Shown piece by piece: positions 51,234 to 54,200 of a DNA stretch of 64,000 nucleotides. This DNA comes from Octopus vulgaris (taxonomy: Eukaryota), in assembly GCA_951406725.2 (NCBI GenBank), contig OX597826.1, positions 63,736,001-63,800,000 of the forward strand, read 5' to 3'. How positions within the stretch are numbered: the stretch's first letter is position 1; every line of letters starts with the position of its first letter. Made by a program: the position numbers.

Positions 51234-54200
51234 TTCGTATGAGTGTATAGATAGATACATAGATACGTAATGAAACAATCTTATAAACATACATATGCAT
51301 ATACACCCTCACATGCACATATATACACACATACATATATATTATGGACGATCTGAATCAACAGCAGGTCCGCATATTTTTTCTGACCTTTATCTAAATT
51401 ATTCAGGAATAGAACCCTTACATAATACATTCTATTTTCTTCACCTGTTCAACGCTAAATATCACATGATGACAGCTCAAGAGTTAGCCAGACACATACA
51501 AATAATAATAATAATAGTAATAGTAATGATAATAAATGTGCGTATAAATAAAGGATTGAAAATAGGAACAGCTTCCTGTGACGATTCGATCAATCATGAA
51601 ACTTCGATGAGCTTCGTTATATGTGGACATGGAAAGGATAGGTAGATATGAATAAAAATGAGGACTTTGATTATTTTTTTTCCTCCGTGCCATCATACAA
51701 CAGAGAAAAATATATACATTGAATATACTTAGAAAGAATTTCTAGTTCATTTGAGAAATCGATAAACAATAAATTGACAGAGAGAATAAGAAGAAAAAAA
51801 ATTCTAGTTGTTAGGTAGCTTGTTAGATCGGTGCCTATGTATTTTATTTATAGAAGCGAATAATAAACGTAATTGTTTAGAGATGAAAATATATGTTCAT
51901 CTGCTTGCTATAATTGTAAAGAGCAAATAATACTCATGCTATATAGCTCTTTATTTTGCTTAATATTCTACTAATGTGTCAAATTATAATACATTAACAT
52001 ATACGCCCACAAAATAAAAAGAAAAAAAAGTAAATAAAATGTTATTTTTAAAAATTGAACTCTGTTTTTGATATTCTTAAGAAAAACATAGCTACGTGTG
52101 TTAACAATAGATATAATATTGAGTAACACAGAAGGGTGGGTGATGATCTCATAAGAAAAAGAAACAAAACCTGAGTGTAAATTATGATAAATAAAACAGG
52201 TGTATGAATGTATATATATATAAAGAAATATACATATATGTGCATGAAATTGTTTCAGTTTCATATCTATAGCTTTTATATTTATCTTCACTGACATTCA
52301 GAACTGATAATTAACGGGTAAGCTTCTAAAACGGTAATGGTAAATCTAGTTAAATGGGATAATTAATTATTTGGTCACAGGTATCAACTGTTGTCAAGTG
52401 AGTGGCCGGTTAATTTGTGCTGAAGCATTTCAGAGCAATTCTTGAAAAAATTCACTCGCAGAAATATTCTTATATAATTAACCATGTGTAGAAAAAAATG
52501 CAAATATTTTCCTTTAAATATCACGAATTCGAATGACATAGTCGCACGTAAATGCATTGCCACGTTTACTAACCTTAGAAGTCCTGATAAATTCCATTTT
52601 CCTGATTCCGTCAAGTGTTTTTCTTGTTTACAGCTTTCAATCCTCCATGTTACAAGGTTAGTCACATCTCATCGATATCAGCACAAGAGATATTTTCAGA
52701 TTTATTATTCCTTCTTGACGATAATCTGCAACAAATCTTCCTTTATAATAAAAAAAACAAAACAAAATATTACAACTAAAATTTTAATCGTATTTTTTTT
52801 ATATTATAAATTTGTTTTCATATTTTTATAGTTTCGTATTCTGGGTTTGAGAGTTTTGTCAACTGCAACATGATGGCGGCTGGAGGAGGTTTTACGTTTG
52901 GACTCTCTCCGGCTCCAGCATTCGGTGCCACAAGGTAACCATAATTTATATCAATACTTTTATTATGTTAAAATGAAAAACGATCTTTCTTCTTGTCTCC
53001 TACGTCGTTGAATTATTTTTTATTATGATTAATGATTAATTACACTTTAAATCTTCCGAAGACAAAATTAAAGAATTTCATCAACTCTCTCTCTCTCATA
53101 ACATTCATTGATAGAAAATAAATCGATAATCGGTTTTTAAACATGAGAGTAATACAAACTATATATATATGAAATGCACTCAAAGATTTCAAGTGAAAAA
53201 CCATCATAATTTACGGATATAAAACAAGCTCGTCACATAAAATCGGTCTTTATTGTGGCCTACATTAAGGAACCAAATGTATAGCAGTTCAACTCATCAT
53301 CATTACGATGTGTTTTTCTTCATATAATCTCTATGTTTGTATTCATTAACATATAAAAAAAATCTATTAGTCCTAGTTAATTGCCATTTTATTTTCACTA
53401 TAAAGTTTTATTCTATAAAGTTCATTTGATAGCAAATACGTGTTTTATTTGTTCGTAAATAATTACGTAAAAAATGACTTCATACAAATGAATTCGTTAT
53501 ATTTAAGAAGGGAAGAAACTCTTATTTATTTCTATGAAATACAGTATGTGACTTATATATTTTTCAGAGCGGGAAAAATTATTAAAGATTTATTTACTGT
53601 TTGATTACTTTATAAAAATGTATGGTTTGTTATGAAATATAGAATTCGGTAAAATGCCTTGGCATGAAAATCGGTTAAATCTAGGCCTTTAAGTCACTCT
53701 TGTTGCTTCTTAGCAGATGTACTAATACTCAGGTTTTGTATATTGAATTCTAAATTTCCTGTTTCTAGAATCATGTTATATTTTCATTACCAACCTGGCT
53801 CTGAGTACAAATGTCTTGTTTTCATAAGTTTTGAATTAGAATCTTCCACCAAACCTTAGTCACAATTTATGTTCCTATCACTAGCTTAATGATAACTAAG
53901 TTATTTTACATACATCGCCCTAATACTCAGGTTTTGTATATTGAATTCTAAATTTCCTGTTTCTAGATAGAACCATGTTATATTTTCATTACCAACCTGG
54001 CTCTGAGTACAAATGTCTTGTTTTCATAAGTTTTGAATTAAAATCTTCCACCAAACCTTAGTCACAATTTATGTTCCTATCACTAGCTTAATGATAACTA
54101 AGTTATTTTTACTAAATTCTTTCTTATATTTAAAGTAATTGAAAGAAATACAATGCATCTCAAAATAAATACAGTAACGAAAGGGTTAACTTCTTTTAAA

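What the first reader, a model, noticed from the sequence alone, without database searches (positions are those of the whole stretch)
52574..52934. MTMR6/7/8 and NUP58 head-to-head pair apparently conserved between a cephalopod and human
Seen: two divergent first exons with ATGs 272 bp apart, neither captured as such by the ORF track. From memory: human MTMR6 and NUP58 are divergent neighbours on 13q12 and MTMR6 has the same 8-codon first exon. Inference: a bilaterian-age microsynteny held by a shared promoter, notable because coleoid genomes are heavily rearranged. Each identification partly leans on the other.
Basis: partly seen in the sequence, partly recalled or inferred. Interest (0 to 1): 0.7.

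Follow-up and report, generated by a model that had tools for sequence, protein, structure and literature searches.

The report
Octopus NUP58 and probable MTMR6-like divergent pair
Two genes that also sit back-to-back in the human genome, a nuclear-pore protein gene and (probably) a lipid-phosphatase gene, start 272 bases apart on opposite strands in this octopus sequence, one more example of an already known kind of anciently conserved gene pair.

Summary
A minus-strand ATG (52597) opens 8 codons (MEFIRTSK) ending at an AAG|GTTAGT donor. A plus-strand ATG (52870) opens 21 codons plus 2 bases ending at AAG|GTAACC. 272 bases separate the two ATGs.

The plus gene is NUP58. Its exon is 21/21 identical to the N-terminus of Octopus bimaculoides "nucleoporin p58/p45" and matches the O. 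sinensis protein. That protein's best solved relative is human NUP58 (E 7.6e-69; Nup62 only 3.7e-6).

The minus gene is probably an MTMR6/7/8 orthologue, on indirect evidence:
- ME.IRT occurs once in the six-frame window against 0.01 expected.
- Human MTMR7 is printed as starting MEHIRT.
- No myotubularin exon lies in the 52.5 kb downstream, so splicing to a PH-GRAM exon is untested.

Papers place human MTMR6 (minus strand) next to the NUPL1 promoter, which implies a divergent pair at most about 27 kb apart. A CpG-undepleted patch marks the octopus start region.

Verdict: a real compact divergent pair and a likely ancient microsynteny. The shared-promoter constraint is not shown. This is a new member of a known class and of modest interest.

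The parts
52574..52597 (-). First coding exon, 8 codons (MEFIRTSK), of the probable MTMR6/7/8 orthologue.
   Evidence: The sequence is read. ME.IRT occurs once in the six-frame window against 0.01 expected. Human MTMR7 is printed as starting MEHIRT. The identity of the gene is inferred, not shown.
52572..52573 (-). GT of the splice donor AAG|GTTAGT that ends the 8-codon exon, in phase 0.
   Evidence: Read. Use of this donor is not shown because no transcript data were on hand.
52598..52869 (.). 272-bp stretch between the two start codons, the presumed bidirectional promoter plus both 5' UTRs.
   Evidence: One search gives the sequence. It lies inside the CpG-undepleted patch. The transcription start sites are unknown.
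52831..52934 (+). NUP58 first coding exon. The ATG is at 52870 and the coding part runs 52870-52934. The stretch 52831-52869 follows an acceptor (...tttttatag|TT) and is coding in the O. sinensis isoform X2.
   Evidence: P0001 at E 1.5e-12 and P0002 with 100% identity over half of the 42-aa query. P0002 starts with the same 21 residues; tblastn aligns P0001 residues 12-46 to 52828-52932 at 97%.
52935..52936 (+). GT of the splice donor AAG|GTAACC, in phase 2.
   Evidence: Read. The split codon AG|Y gives the Ser that follows ...FGAT in both Octopus proteins.
50702..50738 (+). Alternative upstream coding exon of NUP58 isoform X2 (MVLGSNPLYDTL plus G, donor G|GTAAGT). It lies inside repeat-like sequence and inside the presumed first intron of the minus gene.
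   Evidence: P0001 residues 1-12 match in 11 of 12 positions, but the tblastn E-value alone is only 0.13. One search shows the sequence and the donor.
52301..53700 (.). CpG-undepleted patch over the divergent starts, read as a promoter-like and probably unmethylated region.
   Evidence: 35 CpG against 9.8 expected at the window-wide observed/expected of 0.33 (Poisson p 3.8e-10); observed/expected 1.17. The 500-bp windows here rank in the top 2.5% of the window.
1..52571 (-). Presumed first intron of the minus gene, which runs off the window. It is repeat-rich and strongly CpG-depleted.
   Evidence: No myotubularin or PH-GRAM match was found in 533 of 533 minus-strand ORFs of 30 aa or more, nor in 270 of 354 ORFs of 20-29 aa. 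CpG observed/expected is 0.29. That it is an intron is inferred.
52937..64000 (+). NUP58 first intron, longer than 11 kb, which runs off the window.
   Evidence: no further match of P0001 in 52935-64000 beyond chance-level FG-like hits; no FG-rich ORF was seen there.

Best explanation
This is the shared 5' end of two divergently transcribed housekeeping-type genes in an Octopus genome. On the plus strand lies NUP58 (nucleoporin p58/p45). On the minus strand lies, most likely, the single orthologue of vertebrate MTMR6/7/8.

Each gene has a tiny first coding exon followed by a very long first intron. The plus exon has 21 codons plus 2 bases and its intron exceeds 11 kb. The minus exon has 8 codons and its intron would exceed 52 kb.

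The start codons are 272 bp apart. Unless an upstream non-coding exon exists, both transcription starts therefore lie within one short, AT-rich, CpG-undepleted region that would act as a bidirectional promoter.

The same two genes are head-to-head neighbours in human 13q12.13, but there they are many kilobases apart. The pairing is best read as an old microsynteny of the 5'-5' kind.

Shown here: the sequence features, the NUP58 identity, and the CpG pattern.
Inferred: the MTMR identity, promoter sharing, and ancestral origin.
For: Sequence features: both exons, their donors and the start contexts are read directly.

NUP58 identity:
- One search hits nucleoporin p58/p45 of O. sinensis (E 1.5e-12, 97% identity over 83% of the 42-aa query) and of O. 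bimaculoides.
- One search shows identical first 21 residues.
- the O. bimaculoides protein matches human NUP58 chain 5ijn_G at E 7.6e-69 and the Xenopus chain 7wkk_I at 1.2e-68, but Nup62 only at 3.7e-6.
- Pfam PF15967 at E 3e-81 and 3e-84.

MTMR identity:
- ME.IRT occurs once in the window against 0.01 expected.
- Human MTMR7 is described as 'start codon MEHIRT' in passages of PMC5226598 and PMC7286916.

Neighbourhood in mammals:
- A passage of PMC11497725 puts NUP58 and MTMR6 in one 200-kb region.
- A pig table lists MTMR6/NUP58/ATP8A2 (PMC6324166).
- Human MTMR6 is on the minus strand (table of PMC7403632).
- The NUPL1 promoter window lies at higher coordinates (table of PMC5355991).
- Mouse Mtmr6 is on the plus strand (table of PMC4111849).

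Promoter signature: CpG observed/expected is 1.17 in 52301-53700, against 0.29 in 1-52300 and 0.44 in 53701-64000.
Against: - The minus gene is named from 8 residues only.
- No PH-GRAM or myotubularin phosphatase exon was found anywhere in the 52.5 kb downstream of it. Two recalled exon-2 motifs were also absent.
- The 37-aa ORF around the exon finds nothing in the PDB at E up to 10.
- It finds no Pfam family at E up to 0.05.
- No transcript or start-site data were available, so promoter sharing is unproven.
- NUP58 isoform X2 uses an exon 2.1 kb upstream, at 50702. At least one NUP58 transcript therefore starts outside the 272-bp region.
- The human starts are far apart, which weakens the idea that a shared promoter holds the pair together.
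- Only two lineages were compared.
- The strand of human NUPL1 is inferred, not read.
Confidence: 0.75

Rival explanations
1. Only NUP58 is real here. The minus-strand MEFIRTSK ORF with its donor is a chance ORF, or the start of a non-coding upstream antisense transcript of the NUP58 promoter, and its likeness to MTMR N-termini is coincidence.
For: - Only 8 codons are involved.
- There is no database match (and protein 1).
- No downstream myotubularin exon was found in 52.5 kb.
- A reader who knows many N-termini has a large look-elsewhere effect.
Against: - The pattern ME.IRT is expected 0.01 times per 64 kb and occurs once. It lies 272 bp from the start of the very gene whose human orthologue neighbours MTMR6.
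- It has a good start context and ends exactly at a consensus-like donor.
- The 52 kb to its left is as CpG-depleted (observed/expected 0.29) as a methylated, transcribed gene body would be.
Confidence: 0.15
2. Both genes are as named and the adjacency is ancestral, but it is not held by a shared promoter. It persists by neutral inertia or because regulatory elements of one gene lie within the other. The 272-bp spacing would then be a lineage-specific compaction.
For: - In human the two starts lie up to about 27 kb apart by printed coordinates, so no shared core promoter is needed for the pair to persist.
- Irimia et al. 2012 report, in passages read, that only 12.5% of conserved 5'-5' pairs have intergenic regions below 1 kb in human.
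- An intronic NUP58 SNP is an eQTL for both genes.
Against: - Head-to-head orientation appears kept in both lineages.
- Irimia et al. take preferential conservation of the 5'-5' orientation as a prediction of co-regulation.
- The octopus spacing is within the usual definition of a bidirectional promoter.
Confidence: 0.4
3. The plus-strand gene is another FG nucleoporin (NUP62 or NUP54) rather than NUP58.
For: The exon itself holds only generic FG-type sequence (GFTFG, AFG). Nup62 is hit weakly through its FG repeats (E 3.7e-6).
Against: - The exon is identical to the N-terminus of the Octopus proteins named p58/p45.
- The helical region of those proteins matches human, Xenopus and rat Nup58 chains at E 7.6e-69 to 1.4e-19.
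- They carry PF15967 over 542-631 residues.
Confidence: 0.01

Closest known systems
Human MTMR6-NUP58 (NUPL1) locus, 13q12.13
   Same: The same two gene families are immediate neighbours (pig order MTMR6/NUP58/ATP8A2). MTMR6 is on the minus strand at lower coordinates than the NUPL1 promoter, which implies a head-to-head arrangement as in the octopus.
   Different: The spacing is up to about 27 kb by printed coordinates, and about 13 kb by my recall, against 272 bp between start codons here. The vertebrate side has three paralogues (MTMR6, 7, 8) of which only MTMR6 keeps the neighbour; that last point is recalled, not tested.
Conserved ancestral microsyntenic pairs (CAMPs) of Irimia et al. 2012 (PMC3514665)
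   Same: It is a pair of unrelated genes adjacent in distant metazoans and in 5'-5' orientation. That is the majority class of CAMPs: 54.8% in human according to a passage read.
   Different: Whether this pair is in their list is unknown. Here only two lineages were compared, not their multi-phylum criterion.
HSPD1-HSPE1 bidirectional pair
   Same: It is a head-to-head pair with a very short intergenic region. Irimia et al. use it as the model of a pair kept by a shared bidirectional promoter.
   Different: HSPD1 and HSPE1 are functional partners, are closely spaced (<1 kb) in human, and are found together from humans to Capsaspora and fungi. MTMR6-like and NUP58 have no known functional link, and the short spacing is seen here only in the octopus.

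Membership tests
NUP58 (nucleoporin p58/p45; Pfam PF15967 Nucleoporin_FG2) | N-terminal exon identical to that of annotated orthologues in the same genus. | tested here: met
   One search gives E 1.5e-12 to the O. sinensis p58/p45. One search shows 21 of 21 residues identical to the O. bimaculoides p58/p45. One search gives 97% over 35 residues, the one mismatch lying at the splice junction.
NUP58 (nucleoporin p58/p45; Pfam PF15967 Nucleoporin_FG2) | Central alpha-helical region that matches solved Nup58 chains better than Nup54 or Nup62. | tested here: met
   The test was run on the Octopus protein P0002, not on window DNA, because those exons lie outside the window. Results: human NUP58 at 7.6e-69, Xenopus at 1.2e-68, rat fragments at 2.5e-22 to 1.4e-19, Nup62 at 3.7e-6, and no Nup54 hit. 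PF15967 scores 274-284 bits against a cut-off of 32.3.
MTMR6/7/8 subgroup of myotubularin-related phosphatases | N-terminus of the type ME-x-IRT. | tested here: met
   The window has MEFIRT at 52597 on the minus strand. It is unique in six frames, with 0.01 expected. Human MTMR7 is printed as 'start codon MEHIRT'. The N-termini of MTMR6 and MTMR8 are recalled only.
MTMR6/7/8 subgroup of myotubularin-related phosphatases | PH-GRAM domain encoded just after the first exon. | tested here: inconclusive
   There was no PH-GRAM, GRAM or myotubularin Pfam match in 533 of 533 minus-strand ORFs of 30 aa or more, nor in 270 of 354 ORFs of 20-29 aa in 1-52700; 84 low-complexity ORFs were dropped. Recalled motifs were absent. 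Either the first intron exceeds 52.5 kb or the assignment is wrong. That this Pfam copy holds a PH-GRAM model for MTMR6-9 is my recall.
MTMR6/7/8 subgroup of myotubularin-related phosphatases | Myotubularin phosphatase domain with the CX5R active site. | not testable with these tools
   The exons would lie beyond the left end of the window, and no eukaryotic genome collection was on hand.
   No source for the human exon structure was reachable. The claim remains a recollection.
Bidirectional (divergent) promoter pair | Head-to-head orientation with starts less than 1 kb apart. | tested here: met
   This is met for the start codons, which are 272 bp apart. Transcription starts are unknown. Isoform X2 of NUP58 uses an exon at 50702, so at least one NUP58 start lies outside the 272-bp region.
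Bidirectional (divergent) promoter pair | Promoter-type chromatin or sequence signature, and co-expression of the two genes. | tested here: inconclusive
   A CpG-undepleted patch lies at 52301-53700, with observed/expected 1.17 against a window value of 0.33. Expression could not be tested.
Conserved ancestral microsyntenic pair (CAMP) | Adjacency of orthologues in distant animal lineages with orientation kept. | tested here: inconclusive
   The octopus arrangement comes from this window, and the human, pig and mouse data from printed tables and passages. Only two lineages were compared. The MTMR identity in the octopus and the NUPL1 strand in human are both inferred.

The most novel reading that the evidence does not exclude
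The MTMR6/7/8-NUP58 head-to-head pair dates from the bilaterian ancestor and has kept its orientation for more than 500 million years, even through the coleoid genome reshuffling. The octopus form, with 272 bp between start codons, one CpG-undepleted core and giant first introns on both sides, would be close to the ancestral shared bidirectional promoter. The mammalian spacing of many kilobases would be a secondary expansion. This would imply selected co-regulation of a PI3P phosphatase and a central-channel nucleoporin.
Probability: 0.35. Interest if true: 0.45.

Novelty: new member of a known kind. Interest (0 to 1): 0.3.

Why it matters
If the pairing is ancestral, it adds one concrete and easily assayed case to the several hundred conserved 5'-5' gene pairs of animals. 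The case has an unusually compact form in a lineage known for genome rearrangement. A 272-bp fragment could be tested directly for two-way promoter activity.

It also shows that tiny first coding exons, of 8 and 21 codons here, are missed by ORF tracks. They can still be placed by combining short N-terminal matches, splice signals and CpG depletion patterns.

By itself it does not change what is known about microsynteny or about either gene.

Tried and rejected
- Whole-frame translations of the strands were not accepted by the Pfam tool because of stop codons. Stop-free ORFs were scanned instead.
- Pfam scans of minus-strand ORFs in 1-52700 found nothing relevant. Of 533 ORFs of 30 aa or more, 17 had a hit at E up to 0.05, all below the curated cut-offs and unrelated. 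Of the 270 short ORFs scanned, 2 had such hits.
- Pfam scans covered 300 of the 329 entropy-filtered ORFs of 40 aa or more on the plus strand of 1-52800 and the minus strand from 52650 on. The last 29, minus-strand ORFs at 58684-63893, were not scanned. The only hits were a DDE_3 fragment and one chance hit.
- Recalled motifs for the second MTMR exon gave one spurious match and no real one.
- The 37-aa ORF around MEFIRTSK found 0 chains in the PDB at E up to 10.
- The 21-residue NUP58 exon alone was too short for the protein search. The 42-aa stop-to-stop ORF that contains it worked.
They may list this pair.
- The supplements of Schmidbaur 2022 (3 files) hold none of MTMR6, MTMR7, MTMR8, NUPL1 or NUP58.
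- I did not send the 8-residue exon to the large profile search, because 8 residues cannot reach significance against 1.8 billion proteins.
- My own first recollection, that human MTMR6 and NUP58 lie in tandem on the forward strand, was contradicted by the printed minus-strand coordinate of an MTMR6 circular RNA, and I dropped it.
- Rfam and tRNA scans of the window found nothing.

Full report
**What is in the sequence.**
- On the minus strand an ATG at 52597 opens eight codons, MEFIRTSK. They end at 52574 directly before GT, in the context AAG|GTTAGT. The start context has A at -3 and G at +4.
- On the plus strand an ATG at 52870, with a second ATG at 52873, opens MMAAGGGFTFGLSPAPAFGAT plus two bases. 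This ends at 52934 before GT (AAG|GTAACC).
- 272 bases (52598-52869) separate the two ATGs.
- The window has no N. Its G+C content is about 0.36, and it is full of microsatellites and repeated elements.

**The plus gene is NUP58.**
- The 21-residue exon alone was too short for the protein search. I sent the 42-aa stop-to-stop ORF that contains it (52810-52935) and asked for longer proteins.
- Two proteins came back out of 12 candidates. One is 'nucleoporin p58/p45 isoform X2 [Octopus sinensis]' (P0001, 821 aa, E 1.5e-12, 97% identity over 83% of the query). The other is 'nucleoporin p58/p45 isoform X3 [Octopus bimaculoides]' (P0002, 714 aa, 100% identity over 50% of the query, E 0.73).
- P0002 begins with exactly the 21 residues of the window exon and continues with Ser. 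That is what the split codon AG|Y at the donor predicts.
- P0002 finds human NUP58 (5ijn_G, E 7.6e-69), Xenopus Nup58 (7wkk_I, 1.2e-68) and five Nup58 fragments in the PDB. Nup62 is found only at 3.7e-6 through FG repeats, and Nup54 is not found (8 distinct sequences in all).
- Both proteins carry Pfam PF15967 at 274 and 284 bits.
- The best hits also confirm that the window comes from an Octopus species.
- tblastn of the two proteins against the window found only this exon (P0001 residues 12-46 at 52828-52932). It also found a 12-residue upstream exon of isoform X2 at 50702-50737 (11 of 12 identical, E 0.13). The printed output was cut before the P0002 rows.
- No second NUP58 exon lies in 52935-64000, so the first intron exceeds 11 kb.
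Each exon was searched by itself.

**The minus gene.**
- Eight residues cannot be searched in the protein collections on hand. The surrounding ORF is 37 aa, below the 40-aa minimum of one tool.
- That ORF found nothing in the PDB at E up to 10 and no Pfam family.
- I scanned every minus-strand stop-to-stop ORF of 30 aa or more in 1-52700 against Pfam, 533 of 533. I also scanned 270 of the 354 ORFs of 20-29 aa, after dropping 84 low-complexity ones.
- There was no myotubularin, GRAM or PH-GRAM match. The few hits at E up to 0.05 were unrelated and below their cut-offs. Two recalled motifs of the second MTMR exon were absent.
- So the window holds no further exon of the gene.
- Three things support the name:
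  1. Two papers print the start of human MTMR7 as MEHIRT (passages of PMC5226598 and PMC7286916). That is five of six residues identical to MEFIRT.
  2. The pattern ME.IRT occurs once in all six frames of the window, at this spot. The mean over 200 dinucleotide-preserving shuffles was 0.01.
  3. The spot is 272 bp from the start of the gene whose human orthologue neighbours MTMR6.
No call tested them.
- I put the identification at about 0.8-0.85.

**The start region looks like a promoter.**
- The window as a whole is strongly CpG-depleted, with observed/expected 0.33.
- Observed/expected is 0.29 in 1-52300 and 0.44 in 53701-64000.
- In 52301-53700 it is 1.17. That is 35 CpG where 9.8 would be expected at the background rate (Poisson p 3.8e-10).
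- The 500-bp windows over the finding rank in the top 2.5% of the window.
- In animals with gene-body methylation this is the expected picture of an unmethylated start region flanked by methylated, transcribed gene bodies. That reading rests on established knowledge and is an inference here.
- It fits transcription running both ways from about 52.6 kb, and it fits the left 52 kb being an intron rather than intergenic DNA.
- Further undepleted stretches lie at 50801-52300 and 54101-56800.

**The human comparison.**
- A passage of PMC11497725 states that a 200-kb region of 13q12.13 encompasses NUP58 and MTMR6. It adds that a SNP in a NUP58 intron is an eQTL of both genes.
- A pig GWAS table lists MTMR6/NUP58/ATP8A2 together (PMC6324166).
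- A table of circular RNAs gives an exonic MTMR6 circle at hg19 chr13:25839957-25848325 with strand '-'. The strands of neighbouring rows agree with what I know of those genes (PMC7403632).
- A table of promoter windows gives NUPL1 (ENSG00000139496) at chr13:25874162-25876161, hg19 (PMC5355991).
- A mouse table gives Mtmr6 on the plus strand (PMC4111849).
- MTMR6 therefore points its 5' end towards the NUPL1 promoter. NUPL1 must run away from it, since a gene of tens of kilobases cannot fit between the two. That step is inference.
- My own first recollection of a tandem arrangement was wrong and was corrected.

**What this means.**
- The octopus pair meets the usual definition of a bidirectional pair at the level of start codons.
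- The same two genes being head-to-head neighbours in mammals makes common descent of the arrangement much more likely than chance.
- Only two lineages were compared.
- The claim that a shared promoter holds the pair is not supported by the human spacing. Irimia et al. 2012 report that most conserved pairs are 5'-5' (54.8% in human). They also report that only 12.5% of those have intergenic regions under 1 kb in human, and they name HSPD1-HSPE1 as the model case (passages).
- Their main text names neither gene family. Their supplementary list was closed, as was that of a human divergent-pair catalogue.
- The supplements of the squid microsynteny paper of Schmidbaur et al. 2022 do not contain the gene names (3 files, 0 occurrences).
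- My paper searches for MTMR6 with NUPL1, NUP58 or synteny found no paper that describes the pair as conserved microsynteny. These searches cover main texts of the held library only.

**Verdict.**
- This is a real, compact, divergent pair made of NUP58 and a probable MTMR6/7/8 orthologue. It is probably an old 5'-5' microsynteny.
- It is a new member of a well-described class, unless it is already in a supplementary list that I could not see.
- Interest is modest.

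Noticed in passing
window 50702-50738 (+): This is the upstream coding exon of O. sinensis NUP58 isoform X2 (MVLGSNPLYDTL, 11 of 12 identical, followed by G|GTAAGT). It lies in repeat-like sequence next to microsatellites and inside the presumed first intron of the minus gene. That isoform would therefore overlap the other gene antisense by about 1.9 kb. It looks like an exonised repeat and may be a minor or predicted-only isoform.
   Followed up: partly
window 52647-52662 (+): The plus-strand string ATG TTA CAA G|GTTAGT lies 50 bp from the minus-strand ATG. 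If it were spliced to the acceptor at 52830/52831 used by isoform X2, it would be in frame and would add an N-terminal extension to NUP58. No protein or transcript evidence was seen for it.
   Followed up: no
window 1-52300, 50801-53800 and 54101-56800: The CpG landscape contrasts strongly. Observed/expected is 0.29 over the left 52 kb, against about 0.93-0.95 in two stretches around and just downstream of the divergent starts. A second dense patch at 55301-56100 has 30 CpG against 8.5 expected, and its cause is unknown.
   Followed up: partly
window 10578-10733 (+): A fragment of a DDE_3 (Tc1/mariner-type) transposase scores Pfam E 1.7e-5 at 25.1 bits, below the cut-off of 28.6. Neighbouring ORFs in other frames suggest a decayed element at about 10.4-10.9 kb.
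   Followed up: no
window 54860-54999 and 55319-55458; 53722-54109: Two repeat structures lie in the first intron of NUP58. One is an inverted repeat with 140-nt arms, 76% complementary and 319 nt apart. The other is a tandem duplication of about 200 bp, with copies 99-100% identical.
   Followed up: no
window 7637-8180, 48708-49140, 50425-50713, 58684-58920, 61262-61837 and others: A dispersed repeat family is present in both orientations. It is recognisable from recurring ORF translations, for example ...HASMGWTVQLGSGKPEGC... and ...FYVPPAQVPDEAG.... Long CA/TA microsatellites accompany it. No tRNA or Rfam family was found in the window.
   Followed up: no
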